DNA of 64,000 nt from Bacillota bacterium (GCA_021793215.1 JAJYTE010000005.1:25593-89592); one strand, 5' to 3'; positions 1,811 to 42,847 are shown, counted from the first letter of the stretch. Numbers and translations are program-made. Notes: generated by a model not told the origin, from the letters alone.

Positions 1811-2500
1811 GTGATGGATGTGATCTGTCCGTCGGGAACCTTTCCCCACAACTACCAGCAGGGGGAGACGTTCTACTCTCTCGCGCAGCGGTACCACACT
1901 ACCGTCGGTGCCATCCAGGCCGCGAACCCAACCCTCGACCCCTATAACCTCCAGCCGGGCATGGTCATCTGCATCCCGCAGGCCCCTCCGTCCAGCGCCT
2001 GTCCGCCGGGAACCTTCCCGTACACCGCGGTGCAGGGTGACACCTTCTTCCTGCTCGCCCAGCGCTTCAACACGACGGTCGCCGCGCTGAAGGCCGCAAA
2101 CCCCACCGTCGACCCCTACAACATCCAGCCAGGCATGGTCCTCTGCATCCCGCAGTCCACGCCCAGCACCTGCCCGCCGGGAACCTTCCCGTACACCGCG
2201 GTGCAGGGTGACACCTTCTACAGCCTCGCGAAGCGCTTCAACACGACCATCGCCGCACTGAAGTTGGCAAACCCCACCGTCGACCCCTACAACATCCAGC
2301 CGGGCACGGTCCTCTGCATCCCGCACTCCACGCCCAGCACCTGCCCGCCGGGAACCTTCCCGTACACCGCGGTGCAGGGTGACACCTTCTACAGCCTCGC
2401 CAAGCGTTTCAACACGACGGTCGCCGCACTGAAGGCCGCGAACCCCACCGTCGACCCCTACAACATCCAGCCCGGAACCCAGATCTGCATTCCCTGCTGA
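1811..2500 (+). CDS. LysM-domain protein with four tandem Cys-flanked LysM repeats and no signal peptide
   Basis: Four ~57-aa repeats CPPGTFPYTAVQGDTF(Y/F)SLA(K/Q)RFNTT(V/I)AALKAANPTVDPYNIQPG…CIP. An SD-like GAGGTGA sits upstream of the ATG. The protein opens directly into the first repeat. Confidence 0.85.
   Translation: MMDVICPSGTFPHNYQQGETFYSLAQRYHTTVGAIQAANPTLDPYNLQPGMVICIPQAPPSSACPPGTFPYTAVQGDTFFLLAQRFNTTVAALKAANPTVDPYNIQPGMVLCIPQSTPSTCPPGTFPYTAVQGDTFYSLAKRFNTTIAALKLANPTVDPYNIQPGTVLCIPHSTPSTCPPGTFPYTAVQGDTFYSLAKRFNTTVAALKAANPTVDPYNIQPGTQICIPC
2003..2500 (+). repeat. tandem DNA repeat, period 171 nt, 3 near-identical units (LysM modules 2-4)
   Basis: Units starting at ~2003, ~2174 and ~2345 are roughly 90-95% identical at the nucleotide level by eye. 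Confidence 0.8.
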
Positions 2501-2686
2501 TCGTACGAAAGGGGCGCCTCGCGACGTAGCGGGGCGTCCCTTTCCCTTCCGCCCACTCCTTACCGTCGGCGAACTCGAGCGGGTCTTGCGCGGTGGACTG
2601 TGGACATGCCGGGGGAGAGTTCCGTCCCTCGCTGAGCGCCGTGACGAGCAATGGTCGTGTCCGCCCGAGGCCATCCTGCTCGCGCC

Positions 2687-3595
2687 TCAAGGTGCCCGCC
2701 AGAAGACGTAGGGCTCCGCCGCCGAAGAGACGTGCAGAGAACCGTCATCTGTGACCCAGATCGCAGCCAACCCCCGCGCGGCCTCAACGATGCCGCTCTG
2801 GCCGCGCAGGAACAGGGTCTTGCTTTGCACCTCCGCCCACGCGGGATCGACGGAGATCACCGTGACGGCCAAGATCCCCTCTCCGCCAGGCCTGCCGGTG
2901 CGGGGATCGATCAGGTGGTGCACCTTCTGCCCCGCATGCATCCAAGACAGGCGAGCGATCGATGACGTGCAGACGGCGCCGCGCGCCGCGATGCGCACCG
3001 CGGCCTTGAGCGTCTCGGGCGCATGGGGATCCTCGACTCCGATCTGCCAGCCGCCGCCATCCGGCCCGCGCCCCTCGGCGATCAGGTCCCCGCCGGCATT
3101 AAGCAGGAAGTTGCCGGTTACCCGTCGCGCAATGCGGGCTGCCCAGCGGACCGCAAGCCCCTTGCCGATCCCTCCGAGGTCCAAGGGTGCGCGCAGGAGT
3201 ACCTGCCGATGGCGCGGGTCGCGCCCGAGCCAAACTCCCGGCTGTTCGGCCGGTGCATGGGCCCTCGGCACTCCGACGTAGCCGTACTCCTCCAACCGAA
3301 CCAGCACGCGGGGATCGAAGAGGCCGTCGGTACGCCGCCACGCCTGCAAGGACGCTGAGAGCGCCTTGTAGAGCCGGGGGGAAACCGCCGCCCAATCTCC
3401 GACATGCTCGTTCAGCAGCACCAGTTCCGCGCCCTCACGAAAGCGCGAAAGCGCCTGCTCGCTCGCTCCGATGTCCTCCGCCACCGCGCGCGCAACCGCC
3501 TGCCCGACGTCCTCGCCGAGCCCAGGCAGATGCAGGCTGATCGGCGAGGCCATCGCGCTCCAGCGGTAGACGCTGCGCTCGGCGCGAACCGTCAC
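2687..3595 (-). CDS. apbE: FAD:protein FMN transferase (ApbE family)
   Basis: 302 aa with hallmark ApbE segments (…DLGGIGKGLAV…, …HHLIDPRTGRP…). Its start overlaps the stop of the upstream small ORF. Confidence 0.85.
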   Translation of the reverse strand: MTVRAERSVYRWSAMASPISLHLPGLGEDVGQAVARAVAEDIGASEQALSRFREGAELVLLNEHVGDWAAVSPRLYKALSASLQAWRRTDGLFDPRVLVRLEEYGYVGVPRAHAPAEQPGVWLGRDPRHRQVLLRAPLDLGGIGKGLAVRWAARIARRVTGNFLLNAGGDLIAEGRGPDGGGWQIGVEDPHAPETLKAAVRIAARGAVCTSSIARLSWMHAGQKVHHLIDPRTGRPGGEGILAVTVISVDPAWAEVQSKTLFLRGQSGIVEAARGLAAIWVTDDGSLHVSSAAEPYVFWRAP

Positions 3596-3939
3596 GGGAG
3601 CCCGGACGCCCCCGTGGTGGCCTGGACGGTCGGTACCGAGATGCTGCCGAAGCTTTGCACCTTCGGCGCGGGCGGCGGCGTCTGCTGCTTCAGCGCGGCG
3701 AGCTCGCTCTGCAGCGAGGTCTCCTGCGCTGTGATGCTCGTGAGGGAGCGCTGGCTTTGCTTGAGCTTCGCGGCCAGGGCCTTGTCCTTCAACGCCGCCT
3801 GCTTCACCTGTCGCGCGAGCTGCGCTCTCCGCGCGCCCTGGGCGGCGACGCCTCGGAGCGACGCGACGACGGGGACCAGGGCGAAGCTATAGAGGGCGGC
3901 GGCCGCGGCGAGGATCGCCAGGAGCCGTCCGACGTACAC
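3592..3939 (-). CDS. membrane-anchored coiled-coil protein ending in …VQATTGASGLP (candidate FMN acceptor)
   Basis: Probable GTG start at 3939. One N-terminal TM helix (LLAILAAAAALYSFALVPVV) is followed by a Q/A/K-rich coiled coil. The C-terminal T-G-A-S matches the ApbE [S/T]GA[S/T] sequon. The stop overlaps the apbE start. Confidence 0.4.
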   Translation of the reverse strand: MYVGRLLAILAAAAALYSFALVPVVASLRGVAAQGARRAQLARQVKQAALKDKALAAKLKQSQRSLTSITAQETSLQSELAALKQQTPPPAPKVQSFGSISVPTVQATTGASGLP

Positions 3940-3985
3940 TCCACCCCGGTTGGGCCCCTGCCGTACAGCGTGCCTGGCGACCTGT

Positions 3986-4369
3986 CTAGTCGTCCCCGCC
4001 GCCTCCCCCGTCGTCACCGTGTCCGCCTCCGCCGGAGGCGCCTGTCGTCGTCTGCACCACTGGAGGCTGCGCCTTGGCCGCAGCTGCAGCAGCGGCCTGC
4101 GCTGCTTTGATGTCCGCCTTCGTGACCGCCACCGACACCCGCAGGTTCGCAACCTGCGCGGCCGCCTGCGCGTCCTGGCGCTCTGTCTGCTGGACCGCGG
4201 TCGTGAGCTTGCCAGCGGCCGCGCGCTGCGCGACGAGTGTCGACCGCAGGGGGCTCAGCGGCGGCGACGTGATCGGGGCCGGTTGCGCGGCATTCGCCGC
4301 AGCCACTGCACCGACCAGGGCGCCTCCGGTACCGATCACGGTTAGGGCGCGACGAAACGCTCGGTTCAT
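3986..4369 (-). CDS. secreted Ala/Gln-rich low-complexity protein ending in …VQTTTGASGGGGHGDDGGGGGDD (candidate FMN acceptor)
   Basis: N-terminal signal-like segment MNRAFRRALTVIGTGGALVGAVAAANAA. The C-terminal VQTTTGASG motif is shared with the next ORF. Its start overlaps the stop of the ferric-reductase-like gene at 4366. Confidence 0.5.
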   Translation of the reverse strand: MNRAFRRALTVIGTGGALVGAVAAANAAQPAPITSPPLSPLRSTLVAQRAAAGKLTTAVQQTERQDAQAAAQVANLRVSVAVTKADIKAAQAAAAAAAKAQPPVVQTTTGASGGGGHGDDGGGGGDD

Positions 4370-5031
4370 ACCCTCTTCCCTCCAGCCGGGGCGGCCTTGC
4401 GCCGCTGCGGCATCTCGAGCCAGTAGCGAGTCCCACCAGCTGCCAGGACGATTCCCGCGAGCCCGAAGTACATGAAACGCAGGGCGATGCTGTCACTGCC
4501 TGAAAGCATGCCATGGGTCCAGGCGAGCGCGAAGACGAGCATGGCGCCGCGGTGTATGTACAGCCAGAGTTTGGGCGGCAGCTTCTGCGCGTAGCTGGCG
4601 CTGAGCGCGGTTAGCGCCATGGCGTAGAGCGCCACGGTCCCCAGCGCGACGGCTGTCGCACGGTAACCCGCCTGCCCTGGCACGAGCGCGCCGATGATGC
4701 TCACGTGTGCGTACTTGTCCATAACGATCGCGACGATGTGCACGAGGACGAACGCGAAGACGAACGTCGACAGGTAGCGGTGCCAGACGAGCATCGACTT
4801 GGTCTGCTTCCAGAAGGCCCGGTTGATCGGGTGGCTCATCAGGGTGCCCAAGACGACGAGCCCCGCGAGCAGGACGAGCGCCGCGAGGCCAGCGCTACGG
4901 GCGATGATCCAGGGTAGGTTGCGCTCGTAGAAGGCGGTGTGCGGGACCGCGCGCCACGTCAAGGCGAGCAGCACGAGCACCAGGGCAGAGATGCCCGAAA
5001 CTGTTCCCTTGACCCCCAGGCGACCTGGCAT
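4366..5031 (-). CDS. ferric-reductase-like transmembrane heme-b protein (MsrQ/YedZ-like)
   Basis: Six predicted TM helices. His pairs spaced 13 residues apart lie in two helices (HRYLSTFVFAFVLVH; HRGAMLVFALAWTH), as in the ferric reductase heme-binding domain. Confidence 0.55.
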   Translation of the reverse strand: MPGRLGVKGTVSGISALVLVLLALTWRAVPHTAFYERNLPWIIARSAGLAALVLLAGLVVLGTLMSHPINRAFWKQTKSMLVWHRYLSTFVFAFVLVHIVAIVMDKYAHVSIIGALVPGQAGYRATAVALGTVALYAMALTALSASYAQKLPPKLWLYIHRGAMLVFALAWTHGMLSGSDSIALRFMYFGLAGIVLAAGGTRYWLEMPQRRKAAPAGGKRV

Positions 5032-5480
5032 CCGCGCCCCCCTCGTCGTACCGTCGCGGTACGGCCATTCGTGCTGGCAGTCTAGCCAATGTAGATGAAT
5101 TTTCGCCTAAAACGGGAGTGGCACCGAGCCGGGGAGATGAGCCCTCCACACACTCCCCCGCGCCGCGCTGGTATCACCATCCTTTGGGACCACGTTTCTT
5201 CTCTCTTCGAGGCCTGTCGCCAGGGTGTGTCCGTCGGGCGGCAAATCGAGGCGACTTCGCCGACTGGTGGGATGTGATCCCGGCCGCGGATCGTCTCGGT
5301 GGCGGCCGTTCCCGCCCACCGCGCGGCATGGGACCACGATCCGCGCATTGCTTCGGAGGCGCGGCTCTTGCTGGCAGTCTCGCCAGCGCAGACGCACGTT
5401 CGGCAGTGCTGCGGCGTTGCGCAAGCGGAAGGGAGCGGTTTGCGCGGCTGCGAACATACACCCCGATAGGAGGTCGTGGC

Positions 5481-6965
5481 TTGCAGACGATCGACGGCAC
5501 ATCCCTCAACCCGCTCGCGGTCACCCAGGTCGCAAAAGGCGCCCCTTTCGAGATTCCCGCGGCGGCGATCGGACGCGTCCACGCCGGCGCCGAAGCCCTT
5601 TCCCTCCTCATCGCATCCGGCGAGCCCATCTACGGCGTCACGACCGGCGTCGGGGCGCTCGATCGCTACCCGCTCGAGGTCGAGGCGCGCAGAGCCTTCC
5701 AGCTCTCCCTCGTGCGCAGCCACGCCGCCTCCGTCGGCGACGAGATGAGTCCCGTTGAAGCCCGCGCGATGATGGTCGCGCGCCTCAACGTCTTGGTTCA
5801 GGGGCATAGCGCGGCGCAGTTCGGAACGGTGCAGTTGATGGCGGACTGCCTTCGTCTAGGTGTCACCCCATGCGTGCCGCGCCTCGGATCGACGGGGGCC
5901 AGCGGCGACCTCGCGCCGCTGGCGCACCTCGCATGCATGCTGGTCGGTGAGGGTAGCGCGTGGCTTTCGGGGCGCAGGCTCCCGGCGGCGCAGGCGCTGC
6001 GCGACGTCGGACTGGCTCCGGTCCTGCTCGACGGGCGAGACGGCCTCGCGCTGATCAACGGCTGCGACCAGGCGACGGGCGCAGGTAGTCTCTACCTGCA
6101 GGACGCCGTCCACCTCGCGGATGTCGCCGACCTCGTCGGCGCCGCCTCCGCGGAAGCCCTTTTCGCCTTCTCGTCCGCCTTCGGCGAGGAACTGCACGCG
6201 CTGAAAAGCCACCCTGGCCAGGTCAGTGCCGCGCAGCACATACGGGCCCTGCTGACCGGGTCCTCCGCGATCGACGGACGACCGGGGCTGCGCGACATCC
6301 TCTCGGTGCGTTCCATGCCGCAGGTACACGGCGCGCTGCGCGACGCGCTAGAGACGGCGGAGCTTTGGCTCACGCGCGAACTGAATAGCGCCAACGACAA
6401 CCCGTTGATCTGGTGGGATCCGCCGCGCGTCGTTTCAAATGGAAGCCACTTCCATGGTCAGCACGCGGGCATGGCGCTCGATCTCATCGCGACCGCCGTG
6501 ATCCCTGTCGCGGTGATGTCCGACAGGAGACTGTCGCACATGATGGACGAGCAGCGCACAGGACTCACGCCATTCCTGGCGCCGGAGCCCGGCAGGACGA
6601 GCGGGCTCATGATCCCCCAGTACACGACCGCCGCGCTGGTGGCGCACCTGCGCGCGCAGGGGACGCCGGGGGCGATCCAATCTGTCCCGACCTCGAAGGA
6701 CACGGAGGACCACAACGCGATGACCAGCGTGTCGCTGGAGCGGCTGCGCACGGTGCTCGATCACTCGTGGCAGGTGCTGGCGGTGGAAGCGCTCTCAGCG
6801 ACGCAGGCGCTCGAGGCGCGGGGCGAACCGGTCGGCGAAGGGGCGGCGCGGCTACGCGCGCTCGTACGCACGGTTTCGCCGCCGCTCGCGGACGACCGCA
6901 GTCTCTCGCGCGAGATGATGGCTCTCAAAGAGCTCCTGCGCACCGCATCGGCGGCGGACGCCTAG
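5481..6965 (+). CDS. MIO-dependent aromatic amino acid ammonia-lyase (HAL/PAL family; histidine ammonia-lyase-like)
   Basis: Ala-Ser-Gly MIO triad in LGSTGASGDLAPLAHLA and HAL-like N-terminus (…YGVTTGVGAL…). GGAGG then TTG at 5481 is the probable start. The ORF-track start at 5118 adds an Arg/Pro-rich, implausible N-terminus. Confidence 0.8.
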   Translation: MQTIDGTSLNPLAVTQVAKGAPFEIPAAAIGRVHAGAEALSLLIASGEPIYGVTTGVGALDRYPLEVEARRAFQLSLVRSHAASVGDEMSPVEARAMMVARLNVLVQGHSAAQFGTVQLMADCLRLGVTPCVPRLGSTGASGDLAPLAHLACMLVGEGSAWLSGRRLPAAQALRDVGLAPVLLDGRDGLALINGCDQATGAGSLYLQDAVHLADVADLVGAASAEALFAFSSAFGEELHALKSHPGQVSAAQHIRALLTGSSAIDGRPGLRDILSVRSMPQVHGALRDALETAELWLTRELNSANDNPLIWWDPPRVVSNGSHFHGQHAGMALDLIATAVIPVAVMSDRRLSHMMDEQRTGLTPFLAPEPGRTSGLMIPQYTTAALVAHLRAQGTPGAIQSVPTSKDTEDHNAMTSVSLERLRTVLDHSWQVLAVEALSATQALEARGEPVGEGAARLRALVRTVSPPLADDRSLSREMMALKELLRTASAADA

Positions 6966-8998
6966 CCCGCCGGATGCTCTGAGCGCGCGGCATCGCCCAG
7001 GGGCGTGATGCGTACGCGCGTTGCGTAGAAGGTCGCGCCGCCGCCGAAGTCCGCAAGCTCCGACGAGGTCAGCTGATTGACGTTCCTCCCGCCGGCTTCT
7101 GCGTTCCAGCGCACTGCGTAACTCACCGCGGTGCCAGGCTGCGGCACAGTGCTCGGCACCGCGATGAGTTCCAGCGAGCCCCGGTCGTTCTGGACCAAGA
7201 CCGGCTTCCCGTCGCCGATCCCGAGGCGGTGCATATCCTCCTGCGCCATCAGAAGTTCGGGCTTCGGGTGGCTCTGCCGAAGGCTCGCGACGTTGCCGAA
7301 GCTGGACTTGATCGTCTCGCGGCTGGACGGTGTGAGGAGTTCGAACTCCGCCGGGCCGAGATCCCTTGCGTCCTCCCATCTCTCCACCGCGGTGCCGGGC
7401 GGGGGGATGAGGCGGAACTTGCCGGTCGGCGTCGTGATGGGCGTATCGAGGAAGGGCCTCGTCTCCTTGGCGATGCGCAACCGCTGCACGGGGTTCTCCG
7501 ACAGTGACTCGAGGTTGATACCGGACATGTAAGGATGGTCGGTGTCGAGCGCCTCGCGCATCAGCGTTTGGTCATCCGCCTGGAGCGACGGGTCTGAGAG
7601 GCCAAGCGCGCGTGACAGGCGACGGAAGAACTCCGGGTTCGACACCGCCTCTCCCGGTGGAGGAGCGGCCGGGGTGCTCATCTGCACGTATCGGTGCCAG
7701 TAGGAGGTATGAAGGTCCCAAACTTCCATCGCCATCGCGGCAGGCAGGACGAAGTCGGCGAACTTCGCGGTATCCGTAGGCATTTGCTCGTGCACCACGG
7801 TGAAAAGGTCCTCGCGGGCGAGCCCGCGCAGCACGCGCGCCTGGTCTGGGGCCGTCGCCGCAGGGTTCGAGTTGTAGACGAACAGCGCACGCACCGGCGG
7901 ATCCTCGAGGTCGCAGAGCGCATGGCCGAGTTGCACCATGTTCACCGCACGCGTTTCGGGCTGGGGCCCACCGAGCGGCCTCGGCGCGAAGGCGTCGCCG
8001 TTGCTGAGGAGGAGCCCCCCTCCCACGTCCCGCCAAGCTCCAGTTAGCAGGGAGAGCGCCGAGATGGCCCATACGGTGGCCGCACTGCGGCGCTGCCGCT
8101 GCACCCCGTAGCCGACGCGCAGGAGGAGCGGACGTGCCGCTGCGAGATCGTCGGCCAACTCGCGCAGCGCATCAATGGCTATGCCGGTGACTTCCGACGT
8201 CCGCGTGAGGGTCCAAGGCTCTGCGAGCTCACAGTAGCGATCGAAGCCCTCCGACATCTCCATGACCATCTGGCGGTCGTAGCGGCCCGTCCGCACAAGC
8301 TCCTGGCCGAGTCCCAAAGCGAGCGCGAGGTCCGTTCCCGGGCGCGGCTTCAGGTGGCGGTCGTAACGGGCGGCCGTGTCGGTGCGCAAGGGGTCCACGG
8401 TCCAGATGCGCGCCCCGGCCCTCCTCGCCTCGTCCAGCAGCGGCACCTGGTGGATGTTCGTCGCCATGGGGTTCGCTCCCCAGAGGAGGACGCTGCGCGC
8501 GAGCGGGATGGTTTCAGGGTCCGGTCCGATGCACGAGCCGAACACCCAGCGCAGGGCGGCGTTGCCCGACGCGGTGCAGATCGTCCGGTCGAGCTGCGTC
8601 GCACCGATCGCGCCGAAGAAGCGGGCGTCCAGCGCGCCGCTGCTGAGGTACCCCATGTTGCCGGCGAAGCTGTACGGCAGTACGGCCTCGCCGCCGTACT
8701 CCTCAAGGGTTTCGCGCAGGCGCCTCGCGATCTCCGTGAGCGCCTGATCCCACGAGACGCGCTCGAACTCGCCCGCGCCCTTCGGCCCCGTGCGCCGCAG
8801 CGGGTAGAGCAGGCGATCGCGGTGGTAGAGCCGTTCCATGTACCTGTTGACCTTCAGGCACAGGTAGCCGCGGGTCAGCGGGTGCGCGGGGTCCCCGGAG
8901 ATGCGCGTGATGCTCTCCCCGTTCGACTGGACGCGTAGGCCACAGGTGTCGTAGCAGTCATGTGGGCAGACGCCGTGGACCGTGACTTCCGTGGCCAT
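6962..8998 (-). CDS. molybdopterin-dependent oxidoreductase catalytic subunit (Mo-bisPGD family, N-terminal 4Fe-4S)
   Basis: Start MATEVTVHGVCPHDCYDTCG (C-x2-C-x3-C plus a later Cys) and molybdopterin oxidoreductase-like body. The ORF-track start at 9172 adds 58 implausible residues. Confidence 0.8.
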   Translation of the reverse strand: MATEVTVHGVCPHDCYDTCGLRVQSNGESITRISGDPAHPLTRGYLCLKVNRYMERLYHRDRLLYPLRRTGPKGAGEFERVSWDQALTEIARRLRETLEEYGGEAVLPYSFAGNMGYLSSGALDARFFGAIGATQLDRTICTASGNAALRWVFGSCIGPDPETIPLARSVLLWGANPMATNIHQVPLLDEARRAGARIWTVDPLRTDTAARYDRHLKPRPGTDLALALGLGQELVRTGRYDRQMVMEMSEGFDRYCELAEPWTLTRTSEVTGIAIDALRELADDLAAARPLLLRVGYGVQRQRRSAATVWAISALSLLTGAWRDVGGGLLLSNGDAFAPRPLGGPQPETRAVNMVQLGHALCDLEDPPVRALFVYNSNPAATAPDQARVLRGLAREDLFTVVHEQMPTDTAKFADFVLPAAMAMEVWDLHTSYWHRYVQMSTPAAPPPGEAVSNPEFFRRLSRALGLSDPSLQADDQTLMREALDTDHPYMSGINLESLSENPVQRLRIAKETRPFLDTPITTPTGKFRLIPPPGTAVERWEDARDLGPAEFELLTPSSRETIKSSFGNVASLRQSHPKPELLMAQEDMHRLGIGDGKPVLVQNDRGSLELIAVPSTVPQPGTAVSYAVRWNAEAGGRNVNQLTSSELADFGGGATFYATRVRITPLGDAARSEHPAG

Positions 8999-9249
8999 CC
9001 CATCCTTCCGGGCGCGCGTCGGGACCGGCGAGTGTGGAGTGACTCTCCTCTCCGTCTCAAGTTCCACCCGGCGAAGCGTCCGCCCTGCCGAAAGAGCGTC
9101 TCCTCGGTGCCTTCTCAGCGCCCACGCGGGAATCCCGATGTGCGCGCTGCCCGAGGCTGGGCGATCTGGCAACGGAAGGACCCCTTGGGCTGGGCAGGGA
9201 ATACGGCAGACGTGGCTGCGCGCGCGTCCCGCGCGATTGGGGGGCTAGG

Positions 9250-21899: not shown

Positions 21900-23717
21900 C
21901 TACTCCACCGTCACAGACTTCGCAAGGTTTCGCGGCTTGTCGACATCGTTCCCTCGCGCGACCGCCGCGTAGTACGCCAAGAGCTGCAGCGGTAGCACCG
22001 TCAGCGCAGGCGCGATCTCCTCCGCGACGTCGGGAATGGAAAGAACCTCGTCCGCGTGCCTCTCGAGCTCCACATCGCCGGCCTGCCCGATGGCGATGAC
22101 GTGCGCGCCGCGGGCCCGCACCTCCGTCATGTTCCCGATGGTCTTCTCGCGCAGTCTTTGCTGCGTGCAGAGCGCGATCACTGGCACGCCCGGCTCGATC
22201 AGCGCCAGGGTGCCGTGCTTGAGTTCTCCCGCCGGCAGTGCCTCCGCGTGCAGGTACGAGATCTCCTTCAGCTTCAGTTGCCCCTCGAGGGCAACGGCGT
22301 AGTCGAGTCCGCGCCCGATGTAGAAGATGTCCTTCGCCTGCGCGATGCGTCCCGCCAGCGCCTCGATCTCCCCCCGCAGTGAGAGCAGCAGGTCTGCCTT
22401 CGCGGGCAGCTCCATCAGCTCTTCGAGGAGACCCGCCCGAACCTCGCGCCCACGCAGCTGCGCCATGTGCAGGGCGAGCAGTGTCAGCGTAAGGATCTGG
22501 CTCGTGTACGCCTTGCTCGAGGCCACCGCGATCTCCGGTCCCGCGAGCGTCGGCAGCACGGCGTCGGCCTCGCGGTCGAGGGAGCTGCCGCGCACGTTCG
22601 TCACCGCGATCGTCTTCGCGCCTCGGCGCCGTCCTTCACGCAGAGCCGCGATCGTGTCGGCCGTCTCTCCCGACTGGGACACGGCGATCAGCAGGTCGCC
22701 CGCTTCGACGAGCGGGTTCTGGTAGCGAAACTCCGAGCCGATCTCCGAGCGCGTCTCCACCCGTGCGATGCCTTCGAGGAGCGCCCTGCCGACGAGCCCC
22801 GCGTGGTAGGACGTGCCGCAGGCGACGATGTGCAGCCTGCGAACCGTCGCAAGATCCAGGCCGTCAAGCTCCGGCAGGCGCACGCGCCCCGCCGTGACGT
22901 CGATCCTGCCCCGTGTCGTTTCGCGGAAGACATGGGGCTGCTCGAGGATCTCCTTGATCATGAAATGGTCGTGGCCGCCCTTCTCCGCGGCCGCGACGTC
23001 CCACTCGACATGCAGCGCTTCACGTTCGACCGGCGTCCCATCGTGCCGGAACACCTCGGCCGCACCGGCCGTGAGCTGCGCGCAGTCACCGTCCTCGAGG
23101 ATCAGGATCTCGCGCGTGTGTCGCAAGATGGCGGGTATGTCGGAGGCCACGAACTGCTCTCCGCGCCCGACGCCGACGACGAGCGGCGACTGTTCGCGGG
23201 CGACGACGAGCGTGCCGGGCTCGTCGCGTGAGATCGCCGCGAGGGCGTAGGACCCGTGCAAGTGGTCCGTCACGCGCATAAGCGCCTCGAGGAGCCGCCG
23301 GTCGCCCTCCTCCTCGAGGAGGTGCGCCACGACTTCCGTGTCGGTCTCGGAGCGGAAGATGTGCCCCCGCGCGCTAAGTTCCTCTCTCAGCTGCGCGTAG
23401 TTCTCGATGATGCCGTTGTGCACGATGGCGTAGCGCCCGTCGCAGCCGAAATGCGGATGGGCGTTCTCGTCGTTCGGGCGGCCGTGGGTCGCCCAGCGCG
23501 TATGCCCGATGCCGATGCTGCCTGGGACCACACCATCGCCGATGTGGCGGCGCAGGTCCACGATGCGTCCGGCGCGCTTCGAGACGAGGATCTCCCCCTC
23601 GCCACCCAACACCGCGACGCCGGCGGAGTCATACCCCCGGTACTCCAGCCGCTCCAAACCCTCGAGGAGGATCGGCAGGGCTTCCTCCGATCCGACGTAG
23701 CCGACGATGCCGCACAT
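21900..23717 (-). CDS. glmS: glutamine--fructose-6-phosphate aminotransferase
   Basis: MCGIVGYVG N-terminal nucleophile Cys and SIS domains, 605 aa. Its start overlaps the glmM stop, so no room for a glmS ribozyme leader. Confidence 0.95.
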   Translation of the reverse strand: MCGIVGYVGSEEALPILLEGLERLEYRGYDSAGVAVLGGEGEILVSKRAGRIVDLRRHIGDGVVPGSIGIGHTRWATHGRPNDENAHPHFGCDGRYAIVHNGIIENYAQLREELSARGHIFRSETDTEVVAHLLEEEGDRRLLEALMRVTDHLHGSYALAAISRDEPGTLVVAREQSPLVVGVGRGEQFVASDIPAILRHTREILILEDGDCAQLTAGAAEVFRHDGTPVEREALHVEWDVAAAEKGGHDHFMIKEILEQPHVFRETTRGRIDVTAGRVRLPELDGLDLATVRRLHIVACGTSYHAGLVGRALLEGIARVETRSEIGSEFRYQNPLVEAGDLLIAVSQSGETADTIAALREGRRRGAKTIAVTNVRGSSLDREADAVLPTLAGPEIAVASSKAYTSQILTLTLLALHMAQLRGREVRAGLLEELMELPAKADLLLSLRGEIEALAGRIAQAKDIFYIGRGLDYAVALEGQLKLKEISYLHAEALPAGELKHGTLALIEPGVPVIALCTQQRLREKTIGNMTEVRARGAHVIAIGQAGDVELERHADEVLSIPDVAEEIAPALTVLPLQLLAYYAAVARGNDVDKPRNLAKSVTVE

Positions 23718-23720
23718 GGA

Positions 23721-25037
23721 CTAGTTCCCCCCTAGCGCAGCGCAAAGCCTCTCGAGCCACATGTCGGCATCCTCGGCGCGGCGCGCCTCCACCATGACGC
23801 GCACCACGGGCTCTGTGCCGGACGGCCGCACGAGTACTCGGCCGATCCCCTCGAGCGCGCGCTCCGCCTGCTCGAGCGATGCAGCGTAGGCAGGTGCCCC
23901 GAGCGGCTTCTCGCGGTCGACGACGCGCACACTGCGGAGCCGCTGCGGGTACCGCGGCACCTCGCGGCGGAAATCCGCGAGCGACACGCCGAGCTCCGCG
24001 AGGGCGGAGAGCAGCAGGATGCCTGTCGCGAGCCCGTCGCCGGTCGTGCTGGCGCGCCGGTAGATGATGTGCCCGGACTGCTCCCCACCTAGGAGGATGC
24101 CCTCCTGGCGCATCGCCTCGATGACGTAGCGGTCCCCGACCTTGGTCACGACCGATTCGATGCCGCGCGCGTGAAGGTAATCGCGCACTCCGCCGTTCGA
24201 CATGACCGTGAGCGCGACGCCGGCCGGCCCGAGCTCGCCGCGCTCTTTCAGCCAGGTCGCGAGCAGCGCGAGGATCACATCGCCGTCGGCGACTTCCCCT
24301 TCCTCGTCCACCGCGATCAGGCGGTCCGCGTCGCCGTCGAAGGCGAGCCCGATCGCGCCGCCGAACGCCCGGTAGTGCTCCACGAGGTAACTGGGGCAGG
24401 TCGAGCCGCAGTCGACGTTGATCCGCGCCCCGTCCGGCTCGGCGGCGATCACCGCAACGCTCTGCGCCGCAGGTGAGAAGGCAAGCGGAAGGACGGACGT
24501 CGCCGCACCGTGCGCCGCGTCCAGGACAACTCCTTGCGGATAGCGGCTCCCAACGAGCGACGCGAGGTGCGCGATGTACTCCTCTCGCAGGGACCCCATC
24601 TCGCTGCGCTGCCCGATCCCCTCCCCGACCGGCAGCTCCGCTCCAGCGCGCAGCTGCATCTCGATGCGGTCCTCCACCGCGTCCGGCAGCTTGTGCCCGT
24701 CGCGGGCGAAGAACTTGATGCCGTTGTCCTCGACGGGGTTGTGCGACGCGGAGATCATCACCCCGGCGGAGAAGCCGTGGCGATGCGCGAGGTAGGCGAC
24801 TCCCGCCGTCGGCAGCACGCCTGCCGATACGACGTCGGCTCCCGCTGACATGAGTCCGGCTGAAAGGGCGGCCTCGAGCATCTCTCCGGAGAGCCGCGTG
24901 TCGCGTGCGATCAGTACTCGAGCCGGCTCCGAGCCGCCGAGTTCGATGGCGGCGGCTCGGCCGAGGGCAAGCGCAAGTTCCGGCGTGAGGTCGCGGTTCG
25001 CCACGCCGCGAACGCCGTCGGTGCCGAACAGGCGCAA
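23721..25037 (-). CDS. glmM: phosphoglucosamine mutase
   Basis: MRLFGTDGVRG… and active-site ISASHNPVEDNGIKFF. Confidence 0.95.
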   Translation of the reverse strand: MRLFGTDGVRGVANRDLTPELALALGRAAAIELGGSEPARVLIARDTRLSGEMLEAALSAGLMSAGADVVSAGVLPTAGVAYLAHRHGFSAGVMISASHNPVEDNGIKFFARDGHKLPDAVEDRIEMQLRAGAELPVGEGIGQRSEMGSLREEYIAHLASLVGSRYPQGVVLDAAHGAATSVLPLAFSPAAQSVAVIAAEPDGARINVDCGSTCPSYLVEHYRAFGGAIGLAFDGDADRLIAVDEEGEVADGDVILALLATWLKERGELGPAGVALTVMSNGGVRDYLHARGIESVVTKVGDRYVIEAMRQEGILLGGEQSGHIIYRRASTTGDGLATGILLLSALAELGVSLADFRREVPRYPQRLRSVRVVDREKPLGAPAYAASLEQAERALEGIGRVLVRPSGTEPVVRVMVEARRAEDADMWLERLCAALGGN

Positions 25038-25125
25038 AAGCGATTCCTCCCAGTTTCACAGGGCCCCAAAACGCTGGTGTTGCAGGCGGGTCCTCCTCCG
25101 CCGGTCGAACCCTGGTTTCGGTCGC

Positions 25126-25503
25126 CTACGGCGACCTCAGGGTCACCGTAGCGGTGGCCGGCATCACGGAGACCACCTGGGTTCCGCCCGCCTGGATCTC
25201 CGCGTGCAGCGCCGTCTTGTAACGCCCCGGTTTGTCATAGGGTACGCTCACGTACACCCGGATGGCTCCAGGCTGTAGCGTAGTGACCGTCTGGACCGGG
25301 CCACGCACCACGACCGAAGCGTCCTTCGGCGTGATCTCTAGGCGCAGGTGCTTCGGCGAGCTCTGCACGGTCACGGGAAGCTGGGAGACCGTATGCTTGA
25401 CGGTCGGGTTCTGGGTCACCGTTACCTGCCACCAGATCCCGAGTGCGAGGAGCAGCGAGAGTACGCGCAGCACCCAGTCGTTCGCGAGCCAGCGATCGAT
25501 CAT
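25126..25503 (-). CDS. cdaR: YbbR-domain protein (short CdaR-like regulator of CdaA), N-terminal TM
   Basis: One TM then a single YbbR-like beta domain. Overlaps the cdaA stop. Conserved position between cdaA and glmM. Confidence 0.55.
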   Translation of the reverse strand: MIDRWLANDWVLRVLSLLLALGIWWQVTVTQNPTVKHTVSQLPVTVQSSPKHLRLEITPKDASVVVRGPVQTVTTLQPGAIRVYVSVPYDKPGRYKTALHAEIQAGGTQVVSVMPATATVTLRSP

Positions 25504-26324
25504 TCGCTATGCCCCCTCCGGCTCAGCCGCGGCCTGTGCTCGGGCGGTCGCATCGCCGTCTCGAGCAGTCTGCGCAGTGAGGTGTCGTCGAGATGGCGTA
25601 TGAGACGCCCGCCTTCCGCCAGCGATACAGCACCCGTCTCCTCGGAGACGACCACGGCGACCGCGTCGGTCTGCTCGCTGACGCCGATCGCCGCGTGGTG
25701 CCGCGTCCCGAGGTCCGAGGCGGGTCCCAGGACATCCGCGAGCGGTAGGAAGCAGGCGGCAGCGACGATGCGGTTGCCGCGGACGACCGCGGCGCCGTCG
25801 TGCAGCGGCGTGCGCGGGGTGAAGATGTTGGCGATCACTTCCCAGCTGATCATGGCGTCGATCGGAACGCCGGTCTCGATGAGGTCCTTGAGGCCCGTCT
25901 CGCGCTCCATCACGAGGAGCGCCCCGACGTGGTCGTTCGATAGAACGCGGGTGGCCTTCACGACCTCCGTCAGCATCGCCTGGAACGCCTCGTCGGTGAG
26001 GTTGTGCAGAAACCCTTGCCCGCCGAAGATGCGCGAACGCCCGAGCTGCTCCAGAATGCGACGCAGTTCGGGCTGGAAGACGATCGGCACCGCGACGAGC
26101 AGCGCGAGCTCGACGGTCTGCATCAGGTAGTGCGTGGCGGAGAGGGAGAGGAGCCCCGAGAGCTGCGTCGCGACAACCAGCAGCAGGATGCCCTTCGCCA
26201 GCTGGATGGCGCGGGTGCCCCGCAGAAGGGCAAGGGTTCGGTAGAAGAGGAACGCGACGATCAGGATGTCGAGCGCGCTGCGGACGAGTGCCCAGACGCT
26301 CATGCTCTCCAGCGTCAACAGCAT
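25500..26324 (-). CDS. cdaA: diadenylate cyclase CdaA (DisA_N domain, membrane-anchored)
   Basis: Three N-terminal TM helices then DAC motifs (DGAAVVRGNRI…; GTRHHAAIGVSEQTDAV). Confidence 0.9.
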   Translation of the reverse strand: MLLTLESMSVWALVRSALDILIVAFLFYRTLALLRGTRAIQLAKGILLLVVATQLSGLLSLSATHYLMQTVELALLVAVPIVFQPELRRILEQLGRSRIFGGQGFLHNLTDEAFQAMLTEVVKATRVLSNDHVGALLVMERETGLKDLIETGVPIDAMISWEVIANIFTPRTPLHDGAAVVRGNRIVAAACFLPLADVLGPASDLGTRHHAAIGVSEQTDAVAVVVSEETGAVSLAEGGRLIRHLDDTSLRRLLETAMRPPEHRPRLSRRGHSE

Positions 26325-26345
26325 GCCCGCGCTCCCCCCTGTCGC

Positions 26346-26846
26346 TCAGTCCACGATGCGAGCCAGTACCAGTTCGTGCGCTGCGGCGATTCCCGCCGCC
26401 CCGCTTCGAGGCGGCCCGCTGTACGGCCGCATCGCCTCAAGCGTGAAGCCCTGCGTCTGCAGGAAGAATAGCGCGAGGAGATCCGCGTTGGTCACGGGCG
26501 CCACGAGACGTCGGCGGCCGGTTTCACGCGCCACCCGCGCAGCCTCGGCGACGAGCGTCGCCCCTACGTTGACCTCGCACAGCGCGGGGAAGAGACCGAA
26601 GCCGAGCAGCACGAGGTCCTCCTCATGCAGCGCGAGCGGCATCGCGCAGAGCGGTTTCTCGACCTCGATCGCCAGGAGGTAGGGCAGGCGGTCGAGGCGG
26701 AACTCCACGCCCAGCGCCACCTGCGAGAGGGGCTTCTTGAGCGGGCCGAAGCGGTCCGCAGCGCGCGCGGGCCGGCGCTCCGCGCGAAACTCTCGAACGC
26801 CTGACGGCCGCTTCACCGGTCCGATCCACTCCACGTTCTGGCTCAT
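26346..26846 (-). CDS. hypothetical protein, possibly GNAT-like
   Basis: 166 aa with a weak GNAT-like C-terminus (…VTNADLLALFFLQTQGFTL). Lies between rex and cdaA on the same strand. Confidence 0.3.
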   Translation of the reverse strand: MSQNVEWIGPVKRPSGVREFRAERRPARAADRFGPLKKPLSQVALGVEFRLDRLPYLLAIEVEKPLCAMPLALHEEDLVLLGFGLFPALCEVNVGATLVAEAARVARETGRRRLVAPVTNADLLALFFLQTQGFTLEAMRPYSGPPRSGAAGIAAAHELVLARIVD

Positions 26847-27484
26847 GCGCGGTCCGATCCCGCGCCGAGCGCGAAGTAGGCGAGCGACTGCAGCTCGGTC
26901 GTCAGATCGACGTTCTGCACGCTGACCTGCCGCTTCTCGAGCTTCGTCGGCGCGAAGTTCAGGATGGCCGTGACATCTGCGGCGCAGAGCTTCTCGAACA
27001 CGTCGCGCGCGTTCTGCTCAGGCACCGCGATCACCCCGATCCGTATCCCCTGCTCCCGGAGCGTCGCCTGAAGTTCCTCCATCGGCCGGACCCTGAGCCC
27101 TGAGATCTCCGTGCCGATCTTCTGCGGGTCGTCGTCGAACACGGCGGCGACGTACGTGTCGCGCGCGCCGAGGCTGGCGTAGCGGATCAGGGCCGTACCC
27201 AGATTCCCCGCGCCGACGAGCGCGACCGGCACAGCGGCCGTCAACCCAAGGATGCGGCGCAGGTGCTGGGTCAGCTGCGAGACGTCGTAGCCAAGCCCCC
27301 GCGTGCCGAACGCCCCGAAGTACGCCAGGTCCTTCCGAATCTGCTCCGACGAGTATCCCGAGCGGTTCGCGAGATCGGCCGAGGATGTCACTTCGACACC
27401 TTCCGATGCCAGATCCTCCAACACCCGGAGATACAGAGGCAGCCGTCGCACGGCGACGGCTGGAATGCGGCGCTGCGGCTTCAA
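26843..27484 (-). CDS. rex: redox-sensing transcriptional repressor Rex
   Basis: Winged-helix N-terminus (…LPLYLRVL…) and Rossmann GAGNLG NADH-binding motif. Confidence 0.85.
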   Translation of the reverse strand: MKPQRRIPAVAVRRLPLYLRVLEDLASEGVEVTSSADLANRSGYSSEQIRKDLAYFGAFGTRGLGYDVSQLTQHLRRILGLTAAVPVALVGAGNLGTALIRYASLGARDTYVAAVFDDDPQKIGTEISGLRVRPMEELQATLREQGIRIGVIAVPEQNARDVFEKLCAADVTAILNFAPTKLEKRQVSVQNVDLTTELQSLAYFALGAGSDRA

Positions 27485-28488: not shown

Positions 28489-28539
28489 TGTAGCACAAGT
28501 TCACAAGTTGGAGACCTGCGGCCAGCGCGTCCCTTCGCC

Positions 28540-30117: not shown

Positions 30118-30163
30118 CCGGTGGCGCGTGATTCGACCCATCGTGAAAGCCCCCCGGTAAGAT

Positions 30164-35447: not shown

Positions 35448-35604
35448 GGGTGTCCCCTTCTCCGCGTTTCCTAGATCGTAACCTTCCGTCCGGGTCCGCT
35501 CAACCCGCCGCCGCGATCTAAGGCGCCCGCAGCGCAACCCGCGAGATTCCTGCGTGACCGCAGTATGATGCGATCAAGGACGGCCGGACTCGCTGCGGCG
35601 GGAG

Positions 35605-40021: not shown

Positions 40022-40022
<1 letters not shown>
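38202..40022 (-). CDS. uvrC: excinuclease ABC subunit C
   Basis: GIY-YIG N-terminus (GVYVFRDAEGTVLYVGKAKSLRAR), UVR domain, C-terminal HhH. Overlaps the uvrA stop. Confidence 0.95.

Positions 40023-42847
<2,825 letters not shown>

What the first reader, a model, noticed from the sequence alone, without database searches (positions are those of the whole stretch)
2687..5031. ApbE operon with two small proteins sharing a C-terminal VQ(T/A)TTGASG motif and a ferric-reductase-like heme membrane protein
Four co-directional genes with overlapping stops and starts on the minus strand. The order is a 6-TM bis-His ferric-reductase/MsrQ-like protein, a signal-peptide low-complexity protein ending …PPVVQTTTGASGGGGHGDDGGGGGDD, a TM-anchored coiled-coil protein ending …VPTVQATTGASGLP, and ApbE. 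The two small proteins have no globular FMN-binding domain. They do share an identical C-terminal tail whose T-G-A-S core fits the [S/T]-G-A-[S/T] sequon that ApbE flavinylates in NqrC/RnfG-type proteins. I propose they are minimal flavinylated tag proteins coupled to a transmembrane heme electron conduit.
Basis: partly seen in the sequence, partly recalled or inferred. Interest (0 to 1): 0.75.

Follow-up and report, generated by a model that had tools for sequence, protein, structure and literature searches.

The report
Natural flavin-tag tails beside leaderless ApbE
Two small rod-like proteins with no flavin-binding domain end in a conserved tail that matches the site where the enzyme ApbE attaches a flavin, and they sit in a four-gene operon with ApbE and a two-haem membrane protein that recurs in three bacterial phyla; this points to an undescribed kind of tethered-flavin electron carrier.

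Summary
On the minus strand, 5031-2687 encodes four genes:
- a 221-aa ferric-reductase/MsrQ-like membrane protein (PF01794, four conserved His);
- a 127-aa secreted helical protein ending PVVQTTTGASG plus a Gly/Asp/His tail;
- a 141-aa membrane-anchored helical protein ending PTVQATTGASGLP*;
- ApbE (PF02424).

Their starts and stops overlap. Neither small protein matches any Pfam or NCBIfam family, and AlphaFold gives one long helix plus disordered tails.

The tail is not chance. A DNA scan for the tail alone found 15 true relatives in Actinomycetota, Chloroflexota and Bacillota. ApbE lay directly downstream in 11 of the 12 loci with enough DNA to judge, and usually the haem protein was there too. 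Actinobacterial versions add a NuoF-like NADH module. Sulfobacillus acidophilus DSM 10332 carries the full operon. T-G-A-S is invariant while the rest is 26-53% identical, and a third, unrelated secreted protein carries the same tail next to the same ApbE clade.

Two related loci have degenerate tags. I rate it a new variant of a known kind.

The parts
4366..5031 (-). Ferric-reductase-domain (MsrQ-like) membrane protein, 221 aa, putative two-haem transmembrane electron conduit
   Evidence: PF01794 E=5.4e-9. H84/H98 (H-x13-H) and H160/H173 (H-x12-H) align with His in the Sulfobacillus and actinobacterial homologues. The stop overlaps the ORF2 start as ATGA.
3986..4369 (-). ORF2-type: secreted helical protein, 127 aa, with the C-terminal tag followed by an acidic Gly/Asp/His tail
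   Evidence: No Pfam or NCBIfam family. AF2 gives helices 3-27 and 38-99 and coil for the rest. Orthologues are P0003 and those in L002, L008, L013, L017-L026. Third-position-biased substitutions.
4289..4369 (-). Predicted Sec signal peptide of ORF2 (residues 1-27, cleavage after A-N-A)
   Evidence: Read from the sequence. Equivalent n-region, h-region and AxA sites are seen in homologues. Inferred; no predictor was run.
4031..4063 (-). ORF2 tag P-V-V-Q-T-T-T-G-A-S-G; putative FMN acceptor Ser112 (codon 4034-4036)
   Evidence: Matches [S/T]-G-A-[S/T] (PMC8238504; PMC12052999).
3989..4030 (-). Gly/Asp/His-rich acidic tail (GGGHGDDGGGGGDD) that follows the tag only in the secreted type
   Evidence: Its character is conserved in L002, L008, L009, L012-L024, P0134 and P0135. 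Function inferred (metal binding?).
3592..4017 (-). ORF3-type: membrane-anchored helical stalk protein, 141 aa, ending in tag-x-Pro-stop
   Evidence: GTG start with GGAGG-N8. The exact 141-aa protein is in the public gene calls. AF2 gives a single helix 25-112.
3856..3924 (-). Single transmembrane segment of ORF3 (about residues 32-54), preceded by an Arg-rich N-terminus (predicted N-in, C-out)
   Evidence: Sequence. Topology is inferred from the positive-inside rule, not computed.
3595..3633 (-). ORF3 tag P-T-V-Q-A-T-T-G-A-S-G-L-P; putative FMN acceptor Ser138 (codon 3604-3606)
   Evidence: In 25 distinct ORF3-type tails, T-G-A-S and the terminal Pro are invariant (15 of these were found with a pattern that required them).
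2687..3595 (-). Leaderless ApbE (FAD:protein FMN transferase family), 302 aa
   Evidence: PF02424 E=1.4e-42. Matches solved ApbE/Ftp/FmnB structures with the DLGGIGKG, AGGD and HHLIDPRTG blocks aligned. No start codon lies upstream in frame. No hydrophobic N-terminus here or in the 120 nearest homologues.
5032..5480 (.). Intergenic region between the operon and the divergent histidine/aromatic ammonia-lyase gene; presumed promoter region
   Evidence: The HAL start is inferred from the L001 gene call. There is no Rfam match and no FMN riboswitch, and no convincing sigma-70 site.

Best explanation
This is a lineage-restricted variant of the MsrQ-like, flavinylation-associated transmembrane electron-transfer system. 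In it, the usual globular FMN-binding-domain protein is replaced by a pair of non-globular helical stalk proteins. Each stalk protein carries a natural terminal flavin tag.

**Proposed mechanism**
1. ApbE uses FAD to attach FMN by a phosphoester bond to the Ser of the conserved T-G-A-S. This is Ser112 of the secreted protein and Ser138 of the membrane-anchored one.
2. The membrane protein carries two b-type haems on its four conserved His. It moves electrons from the inside to the outer face of the membrane. The donor is probably the quinol pool in this organism, and an operon-encoded NuoF-like NADH module in actinobacterial versions.
3. The FMN sits at the end of a roughly 60-90-residue helix followed by a flexible linker (Pro-rich in many homologues). 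It acts as a tethered shuttle that collects electrons at the haem protein and delivers them to an extracytoplasmic acceptor.
4. That acceptor may be a metal ion held by the Gly/Asp/His tail next to the flavin, which would make this a ferric-reductase-type function.

**What is shown:** gene content, architecture, motif conservation, linkage to apbE and to the haem protein, absence of a flavin-binding fold, and conservation of ApbE family blocks.

**What is inferred:** FMN attachment, topology, haem binding, direction of electron flow, pairing of the two stalk proteins, and the acceptor.
For: **Architecture**
- Operon structure and domains.
- The tail matches the ApbE sequon register. Q/H-[A/T]-[T/V]-T-G-A-S compares with D-x-x-[S/T]-G-A-[S/T]. 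One homologue has the canonical Asp (SVDTVTGAS in L029).

**Literature on the sequon (PMC12052999)**
- Seven residues suffice.
- Terminal placement works best.
- Asp-to-Ala has only minor effects.
- Ser is accepted.

**Conservation**
- The tag is invariant against 26-53% background identity.
- All 13 profile hits in 1.84e9 representatives carry it.

**Linkage**
- A motif-only DNA scan of 185,579 species genomes returned 17 loci. Fifteen have the same TM, helix, linker and tag architecture.
- ApbE is directly downstream in 11 of the 12 informative loci, and the haem protein is present in 9.
- The ORF2-type partner is present wherever upstream DNA exists.
- A NuoF-like protein (PF01512+PF10589) follows the haem protein in L023 and L026. 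This matches the 31 MsrQ-like/NuoF-like clusters noted in PMC8238504.
- The full operon is in Sulfobacillus acidophilus DSM 10332.

**Specificity of the tag**
- The small proteins are the only operon products with an [ST]G[AS][ST] site.
- A third, unrelated secreted protein type ends in VHTSSGASG* or THSTTGASG* next to the same ApbE clade. The tag therefore behaves as a portable module.

**No alternative domain**
- No globular domain and no known family.
- ApbE is a bona fide family member.
- PMC8238504 states that unidentified ApbE substrates remain.
Against: - There is no biochemical evidence of FMN attachment.
- ApbE here, and all 120 nearest homologues, lack a signal peptide or lipobox. 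The tags are predicted to be outside the membrane, so enzyme and substrate appear to be in different compartments.
- The window's tags lack the canonical Asp and use Ser rather than the preferred Thr.
- There is no flavin-binding pocket, so the redox properties would be those of near-free FMN.
- In two related loci the ORF2-type has lost the motif, and the ORF3-type ends HATTAASGG* or ACTTGSGKPC*.
- A Thermaerobacter MAG is syntenic with the window and keeps ApbE but lacks the haem protein and both small proteins. One locus has the pair without an adjacent apbE (L018).
- The window has no operon-encoded cytoplasmic electron donor.
- Fifteen of the tails were found with a pattern that required the motif. 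Their motif conservation is circular, although their linkage to apbE is not.
Confidence: 0.6

Rival explanations
1. The small proteins are structural or scaffolding partners of the haem protein, forming a coiled-coil stalk. Their conserved tail is a docking peptide, or carries some other modification, and is not an FMN acceptor. The leaderless ApbE flavinylates an unlinked cytoplasmic protein, or only processes FAD.
For: - ApbE is leaderless, as is its whole clade, whereas the tails are predicted to be outside.
- Cytoplasmic ApbEs with cytoplasmic targets are known (PMC12052999).
- ApbE persists without the module in L003 and L005.
- The module persists with degenerate tags in L028 and L032.
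- The canonical Asp is absent in most tags.
Against: - The invariant residues are exactly the four that define the ApbE sequon.
- The same tail is found on three unrelated protein architectures, always beside this ApbE clade.
- One tag has the full canonical DTVTGAS.
- No other operon protein has a sequon.
- ApbE directly follows the tagged gene, often with overlapping codons.
Confidence: 0.22
2. The ApbE-family protein acts here mainly as a flavin-trafficking or FAD-pyrophosphatase enzyme, like T. pallidum Ftp. It would supply FMN to the haem protein or a partner non-covalently, and the tails would bind metal or cell-wall components.
For: - The family includes an FAD pyrophosphatase (PMC4767422, listed).
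- The Gly/Asp/His tails look like metal-binding sequences.
- MsrQ-type proteins are discussed as iron-reduction partners.
Against: - This does not explain the invariant T-G-A-S, nor its presence on proteins that lack acidic tails (ORF3-type and the L007 type).
- Pyrophosphatase-type Ftp is periplasmic, and this enzyme is not.
Confidence: 0.08
3. The small ORFs are not real genes. They would be chance open frames in 70% G+C DNA, or the shared motif would reflect another known motif (the MIO-forming Ala-Ser-Gly of ammonia-lyases, or the TGxxGxxG Rossmann motif of SDRs).
For: - High G+C DNA gives many spurious long ORFs.
- TGASG also occurs in the neighbouring ammonia-lyase at 5892-5906.
- VTGASG is an SDR motif in the literature hits.
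Against: - Substitutions are biased to the third codon position and to synonymous changes.
- Architecture and order are conserved across three phyla.
- Independent gene calls exist.
- MIO formation and Rossmann motifs need a folded context that these tails lack.
- The ammonia-lyase is not linked in other taxa.
Confidence: 0.02

Closest known systems
MsrQ-like flavinylation-associated gene clusters (Meheust et al. 2021, eLife, PMC8238504)
   Same: A PF01794 six-helix two-haem membrane protein is clustered with apbE. Some clusters add a NuoF-like NADH module, as the actinobacterial relatives do here. The proposed role is transmembrane electron transfer to an extracytoplasmic flavin, possibly for iron reduction.
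   Different: Those clusters typically contain an FMN-binding-domain (PF04205) protein as substrate. Here there is none, and two non-globular helical proteins carry the sequon at their C-termini. That study also filtered for signal-peptide-bearing components, whereas this ApbE is leaderless.
FMN-bind domain substrates of ApbE (NqrC, RnfG, PplA, NosR, PceC)
   Same: Membrane-anchored or secreted proteins with an [S/T]-G-A-[S/T] acceptor that takes electrons from a membrane complex.
   Different: Those have a roughly 120-residue folded domain that cradles the isoalloxazine ring. Here the acceptor lies in a predicted disordered tail, 3-15 residues from the C-terminus, with Q/H in place of the conserved Asp and Ser in place of Thr.
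Engineered Flavin-tag (Tong, Lee, Drenth and Fraaije 2021; reviewed in PMC12052999)
   Same: A short linear ApbE recognition peptide at a protein terminus, flavinylated without any flavin-binding fold.
   Different: That is a laboratory construct. This would be a natural equivalent, conserved in operons across phyla and presumably redox-active in vivo.
Flavinylated FMN reductase with a C-terminal extension (Huang et al. 2024, PMC11334425)
   Same: The acceptor Ser is on a C-terminal extension.
   Different: There the extension folds back onto an existing FMN pocket of a globular flavoprotein. Here there is no pocket.
Cytoplasmic ApbE of Klebsiella pneumoniae (flavinylates a soluble fumarate reductase; cited in PMC12052999)
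   Same: An ApbE without a signal peptide.
   Different: Its substrate is cytoplasmic. Here the putative substrates carry export signals.
DUF2271 and DUF3570 (orphan-apbE substrates validated in PMC8238504)
   Same: Substrate classes discovered through a conserved sequon in genes next to orphan apbE. The logic of inference is the same.
   Different: Both are folded domains and were validated experimentally. This family is helical and disordered, and is not validated.

Membership tests
ApbE / FAD:protein FMN transferase (PF02424) | Pfam ApbE domain above the gathering threshold | tested here: met
   146.5 bits against a cut-off of 25.6, E=1.4e-42, covering 31-274 of 302.
ApbE / FAD:protein FMN transferase (PF02424) | Sequence similarity to solved FMN transferases, including the conserved blocks around the FAD/Mg site | tested here: met
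   Hits to 1vrm, 2o18/4xgv, 6nxi, 7esa and 4ifu at E=3e-20 to 4e-10. DLGGIGKG, AGGD and HHLIDPRTG align. Individual catalytic residues were not mapped one by one.
ApbE / FAD:protein FMN transferase (PF02424) | N-terminal lipoprotein or secretion signal (typical, not universal) | tested here: not met
   The protein starts 14 residues before the first strand, with no in-frame start upstream. None of the 120 nearest homologues has a hydrophobic N-terminus.
ApbE / FAD:protein FMN transferase (PF02424) | Mg2+-dependent transfer of FMN from FAD to Ser/Thr | not testable with these tools
   Needs an enzyme assay.
MsrQ-like flavinylation-associated cluster (PMC8238504 definition) | PF01794 gene within a cluster that contains apbE or a flavinylation substrate | tested here: met
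   Conserved in relatives.
MsrQ-like flavinylation-associated cluster (PMC8238504 definition) | FMN-binding-domain (PF04205) gene in the cluster (typical) | tested here: not met
   No Pfam hit at E<=0.1 for ORF2 or ORF3 or for actinobacterial and Sulfobacillus counterparts. No NCBIfam family.
MsrQ-like flavinylation-associated cluster (PMC8238504 definition) | Cytoplasmic NAD(P)H module (fused PF00175 or NuoF-like PF10589) in a subset | tested here: not met
   Absent from the window. Present in relatives L023 and L026.
Ferric reductase domain superfamily (PF01794) | Two His pairs on two transmembrane helices (H-x13-H and H-x12-H) able to ligate two b haems | tested here: met
   H84/H98 and H160/H173 are conserved in L008 and L026. 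Haem binding itself is not testable here.
ApbE substrate sequon D-x-x-[S/T]-G-A-[S/T] | [S/T]-G-A-[S/T] core | tested here: met
   T-G-A-S in both proteins. Invariant in the family, except L009 ORF2 (TGSS), L028 (TAAS) and L032.
ApbE substrate sequon D-x-x-[S/T]-G-A-[S/T] | Asp six residues before the acceptor | tested here: not met
   Gln in the window. His or Gln in 22 of 25 tails. Asp only in L029. The literature reports that Asp-to-Ala has minor effects.
ApbE substrate sequon D-x-x-[S/T]-G-A-[S/T] | Covalent FMN on the last Ser/Thr | not testable with these tools
   Needs in-gel fluorescence or mass spectrometry.
FMN_bind domain proteins (NqrC/RnfG-like) | Folded FMN-binding domain | tested here: not met
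   AF2 gives one long helix plus coil for ORF3, and a signal helix, a long helix and coil for ORF2. The models have low to moderate confidence (pLDDT about 61, 5-sequence alignment).

The most novel reading that the evidence does not exclude
The tag is flavinylated in the cytoplasm by the leaderless ApbE before the protein is exported. Its invariable position at the extreme C-terminus of a disordered tail lets it be modified last-in-line and then threaded through Sec. This would give a pocket-less, protein-tethered FMN on a long helical stalk with a flexible linker, which works outside the membrane as a swinging-arm electron shuttle. Such a shuttle would be a non-diffusible counterpart of secreted flavin shuttles. 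The route would bypass the need to export FAD. It would be the first natural 'flavin-tag' and the first case of ApbE modification preceding export.
Probability: 0.3. Interest if true: 0.85.

Novelty: new variant of a known kind. Interest (0 to 1): 0.7.

Why it matters
ApbE flavinylation is a major route for moving electrons outside the bacterial cytoplasm. The field's own survey says that substrates of 'orphan' apbE genes remain unidentified (PMC8238504).

If these tails carry FMN, several things follow:
- They would define a substrate class with no flavin-binding fold.
- They would show that nature uses the minimal linear tag that was later engineered as the Flavin-tag.
- They would give a new design for extracytoplasmic electron transfer: a flavin on a stalk fed by a two-haem conduit. 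This is relevant to iron reduction in acidophilic and thermophilic Bacillota such as Sulfobacillus, and in Acidimicrobiia and Actinomycetes.

The mismatch between a leaderless enzyme and exported substrates poses a sharp, testable question about where and when flavinylation happens.

The system is directly testable in a cultured organism. Sulfobacillus acidophilus DSM 10332 carries it at CP003179.1, about 3,392,425-3,394,987.

Tried and rejected
- **Programmed -1 frameshift fusing ORF3 to ApbE, which would anchor ApbE outside.** Rejected. The junction is GTGA in the window and L009, a 1-nt overlap in L002 and a 17-nt gap in Sulfobacillus, so no frame relation is conserved.
- **Tat export of a pre-flavinylated ORF2.** The window has an RR pair in its signal, but homologues have KR or a single R. 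Not supported.
- **An N-terminal extension of ApbE hidden in the overlapping frame.** There is no start codon in the window. Upstream translations in relatives have no hydrophobic stretch.
- **Link to the adjacent ammonia-lyase** (urocanate and urocanate-reductase logic; shared TGASG = MIO signature). The lyase is absent from the operon in other taxa, and the FAD_binding_2 protein at 35569-37251 has no sequon.
- **SDR TGxxGxxG motif.** Wrong position and context.
- **FMN riboswitch or other RNA upstream.** No Rfam match at E<=1.
- **Promoter and terminator scan.** Uninformative.
- **The search for related loci with the 12-sequence alignment.** Replaced by a hand-made degenerate DNA pattern.
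- **Supplementary tables of PMC8238504, searched for Sulfobacillus and Thermaerobacter.** Nothing found, but the stored file is truncated.
- **Context of the S. thermosulfidooxidans ApbE.** No DNA was available.
- **Word-index protein searches with ORF2 and ORF3.** They found only 3 close relatives. The full HMM scan was needed.
Full report
**1. What is in the window**

The minus strand between 5031 and 2687 carries four co-directional genes with coupled junctions.

- **Haem protein.** The first gene (5031-4366, 221 aa) matches the ferric-reductase transmembrane family PF01794 (E=5.4e-9). It has two His pairs, H84/H98 and H160/H173. These align with His in its Sulfobacillus and actinobacterial homologues and form the pattern expected for two stacked b haems. 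Its TGA overlaps the ATG of the next gene (ATGA, 4366-4369).
- **ORF2** (4369-3986, 127 aa) begins with a typical signal peptide (MNRAFRRALTVIGTGGALVGAVAAANA|AQ). It ends PPVVQTTTGASG followed by GGGHGDDGGGGGDD.
- **ORF3** most plausibly starts at GTG 4017, preceded by GGAGG-N8. This gives 141 aa, and that exact protein exists as an independent gene call. It has an Arg-rich N-terminus and one hydrophobic segment, and it ends VPTVQATTGASGLP*. Its TGA overlaps the GTG of ApbE (3592-3595).
- **ApbE** (3595-2687, 302 aa) hits PF02424 at E=1.4e-42. It also matches solved FMN transferases from Thermotoga, E. coli, Vibrio, Listeria and Treponema, with the DLGGIGKG, AGGD and HHLIDPRTG blocks aligned.

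Neither small protein hits any Pfam or NCBIfam model. AlphaFold2 models have modest confidence (pLDDT about 61, shallow alignments). ORF3 is one helix (25-112) with coil at both ends. ORF2 is a signal helix, one long helix (38-99) and a coil tail.

**2. Is it more than chance, and are the ORFs real?**

- In the six-frame translation of the window, the expected number of VQ[AT]TTGASG is 8.5e-6. Two occur, in neighbouring genes.
- Against a 90%-identical relative (L001), differences fall mainly at third codon positions: 4/8/29 for ORF2 and 8/7/21 for ORF3. Synonymous codon changes outnumber non-synonymous ones, 26:13 and 20:11.
- A relative with only 53% identity in ORF3 (L002) keeps VPMVQATTGASGLP*. 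Its ORF2 counterpart keeps AVQATTGASG plus an acidic tail, and a leaderless ApbE follows.

**3. Relatives elsewhere**

Word-index searches found almost nothing. A full HMM scan of 1.84 billion representatives with a five-sequence profile found 13 proteins. Every one ends either TGASG-x-P* (ORF3-type) or TGASG followed by a Gly/Asp-rich tail (ORF2-type). In an alignment of 12 ORF3-type proteins (26-53% identity), the invariant columns are essentially T-G-A-S and the terminal Pro.

*Sampling loci through ApbE homologues.* This route is independent of the motif.
- Sulfobacillus acidophilus DSM 10332 has the same four genes. Its tails are SSVHTVTGASG plus an acidic tail, and PPVHTVTGASGMP*.
- L009 has TVQTVTGSSG plus an acidic tail, and TVQTTTGASSLP*.
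- L029 has SVDTVTGASS..., which has the canonical Asp, and QVQTTTGAS*. The haem protein lies after ApbE.

*Scanning for the tail only.* I scanned one genome per species (185,579 species) with a DNA pattern for the tail alone: P-x-V-[QH]-x-x-T-G-A-S-G-x-P-stop. It returned 17 loci.
- Fifteen encode the same architecture of TM segment, long helix, Pro/Ala-rich linker and tag. They come from Actinomycetes, Acidimicrobiales, Jatrophihabitans, Chloroflexota and Bacillota MAGs.
- Two look like chance matches: Myxococcus and Rubrivivax.

With local HMMs, ApbE lies immediately downstream in 11 of the 12 loci that have enough downstream DNA. The haem protein is in the same operon in 9. The exception is L018, where a GntR-like gene follows the pair. 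An ORF2-type gene with an acidic tail precedes the ORF3-type gene wherever upstream DNA is available.

The gene order differs between phyla:
- Actinobacteria: ORF2-type, ORF3-type, ApbE, haem protein. In L023 and L026 a NuoF-like protein (PF01512+PF10589) follows.
- Bacillota: haem protein, ORF2, ORF3, ApbE.

**4. A portable tag**

In loci whose ApbE is 62-64% identical to the window's, there is no haem protein or helical pair. About 3 kb upstream lies a 143-146-aa secreted, Cys-containing, non-helical protein ending KP[SA]VHTSSGASG* (L007, L010). A metagenome scan with that protein found a 52%-identical homologue ending APSTHSTTGASG*, with ApbE directly downstream (L031). Three unrelated architectures therefore carry the same C-terminal tail next to the same ApbE clade. 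Within the operons, the small proteins are the only products with an [ST]G[AS][ST] site. The haem proteins, NuoF-like proteins and ApbE have none.

**5. Comparison with what is known**

*The sequon.* ApbE transfers FMN from FAD to the last residue of D-x-x-[S/T]-G-A-[S/T]. According to PMC12052999:
- seven residues suffice;
- the engineered 'Flavin-tag' works best at a terminus;
- Asp-to-Ala has minor effects;
- Gly-to-Ala or Ala-to-Val roughly halves modification;
- Ser is accepted, though less well than Thr.

The tails here align in register, [Q/H/D]-[A/T]-[T/V]-T-G-A-S.

*The cluster type.* MsrQ-like (PF01794) flavinylation clusters are described as common in Actinobacteria. [quoted passage not shown] That study kept only signal-peptide-bearing components. 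It states that substrates of the remaining orphan apbE genes are unidentified.

*Precedent for a C-terminal acceptor.* Huang et al. 2024 describe an FMN reductase flavinylated on a C-terminal extension, and coiled-coil proteins decorated with FMN-bind domains. They do not describe a pocket-less tag (PMC11334425).

*Literature check.* I found no paper mentioning this tail in bacteria, or ApbE in Sulfobacillus. The locus is therefore a member of the MsrQ-like cluster kind with a substrate type that I could not find described.

**6. Complications**

- **Leaderless ApbE.** No in-frame start lies upstream. None of the 120 nearest homologues (40-100% identity) has a hydrophobic N-terminus. The same holds in the actinobacterial loci. 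ORF2-type proteins nevertheless have Sec-type signals with AxA sites, and ORF3-type proteins have Arg-rich N-termini before their single TM segment. The tails should therefore be outside the cell. This topology is inferred; no predictor was run.
- **Degenerate tags.** In a sister subclade (L028, L032) the haem protein, helical pair and ApbE are kept. The ORF2-type ends only in an acidic or His-rich tail, and the ORF3-type ends HATTAASGG* or ACTTGSGKPC*.
- **ApbE without the module.** A Thermaerobacter MAG is syntenic with the window (Mo-oxidoreductase ... ApbE ... LysM). It lacks the lyase, the haem protein and both small proteins. L005 and L006 also lack tagged neighbours.
- **Motif-independent sampling.** Of nine ApbE-sampled loci, five have the helical pair (three with good tags, two degenerate), two have the third tagged protein, and two have none.

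**7. Mechanism**

The best-supported reading has four steps:
1. ApbE attaches FMN to Ser112 (ORF2) and Ser138 (ORF3).
2. The two-haem protein conducts electrons outward. The donor is probably quinol in this organism, since no donor is encoded in the window, and a NuoF-like NADH module in Actinobacteria.
3. The tethered FMN, on a long helix and flexible linker, shuttles electrons to an external acceptor.
4. The Gly/Asp/His tail next to the flavin in the secreted partner suggests a bound metal as acceptor. The two helical proteins may pair, which would keep the secreted one at the membrane.

All steps after gene content are inference.

The extreme C-terminal position of the tag in all three protein types, together with a cytoplasmic enzyme, fits flavinylation before export. 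I give that reading about 0.3.

**8. Verdict**

- It is a new variant of a known kind.
- It is directly testable in a cultured organism.
- Interest is 0.7.

Noticed in passing
L007 2498-2929; L010 2467-2907; L030 5001-5432; L031 615-1049: A third tag-bearing protein family. It is a secreted, Cys-containing protein of about 145 aa with no predicted coiled coil and no Pfam hit. It ends VHTSSGASG* or THSTTGASG* and lies 0-3 kb upstream of the same leaderless ApbE clade. L007 and L010 also carry large secreted proteins without Pfam matches and small thioredoxin-like genes around ApbE.
   Followed up: partly
window 2687-3595 and proteins P0004-P0123: The whole clade of the 120 nearest ApbE homologues (Bacillota, Chloroflexota, Actinomycetota) lacks a signal peptide or lipobox. 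Some database names nevertheless call them 'lipoprotein'.
   Followed up: yes
window 5481-6965 (+), motif at 5892-5906: A divergently transcribed aromatic/histidine ammonia-lyase (PF00221, E=1e-141). Its MIO-forming signature GSTGASGDLAPL contains the same TGASG pentapeptide as the tags. I judge this coincidental, because the lyase is not linked to the operon in other taxa.
   Followed up: yes
L003 3525-9176 versus window 1811-9172: A Thermaerobacter sp. MAG is syntenic with the window (Mo-oxidoreductase, ApbE, LysM protein, GNAT, thioesterase). It lacks the lyase, haem protein, ORF2 and ORF3, and has a 76-aa Imm_superinfect-like membrane protein instead. The module looks like an insertion or deletion next to a resident apbE.
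   Followed up: partly
L028 3301-5004; L032 2271-3968: A sister subclade keeps the haem protein, helical pair and ApbE, but with degenerate tails. The ORF2-type ends SGEDEHHDHDGDEGEHGDD* or QEPEDDD*. The ORF3-type ends HATTAASGG* or ACTTGSGKPC*.
   Followed up: partly
L021 815-1552 (-); L019 576-2309 (-); L011 2459-2926: The acidic tails of ORF2-type proteins can be long and repetitive, for example six copies of the EHDGT unit in L021. They often contain His, which suggests metal binding.
   Followed up: no
window 3986-4017: The 3' end of ORF2 and the 5' end of ORF3 overlap by 32 nt in different frames. The Gly/Asp tail codons of ORF2 include the GGAGG ribosome-binding site and the GTG start of ORF3.
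   Followed up: partly
protein P0126: A 160-aa database protein joins an ApbE N-terminus to an ORF3-type C-terminus (…TVQATTGASGMP). It is probably an assembly or gene-call chimera.
   Followed up: no
window 1811-2500 (+): A 229-aa protein made of four near-identical LysM repeats (PF01476, E=3e-58). It lies convergent with apbE, and a similar LysM protein sits in the same relative position in L003.
   Followed up: no
window 6962-8992 (-): A molybdopterin oxidoreductase (Fe4S4, Molybdopterin and Molydop_binding domains). At its likely start (MATEVTVHGVCPHDCYDTCGL) there is no Tat signal, so it is probably cytoplasmic. It is conserved next to the locus in L001 and L003.
   Followed up: no
window 21900-34627 and 38202-42874: Housekeeping genes in an arrangement I recognise as typical of Bacillota: glmS, glmM, cdaA, polyprenyl synthase, whiA, cofD-like, rapZ, uvrC and uvrA. 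G+C is 0.65-0.72. This fits a Thermaerobacter-like high-GC Bacillota source (nearest named ApbE 69%).
   Followed up: partly
window 35569-37251 (+): A 561-aa FAD_binding_2 flavoprotein from the fumarate/urocanate-reductase-like superfamily. It has no FMN_bind domain and no [ST]G[AS][ST] site, so it is not an obvious ApbE substrate.
   Followed up: yes
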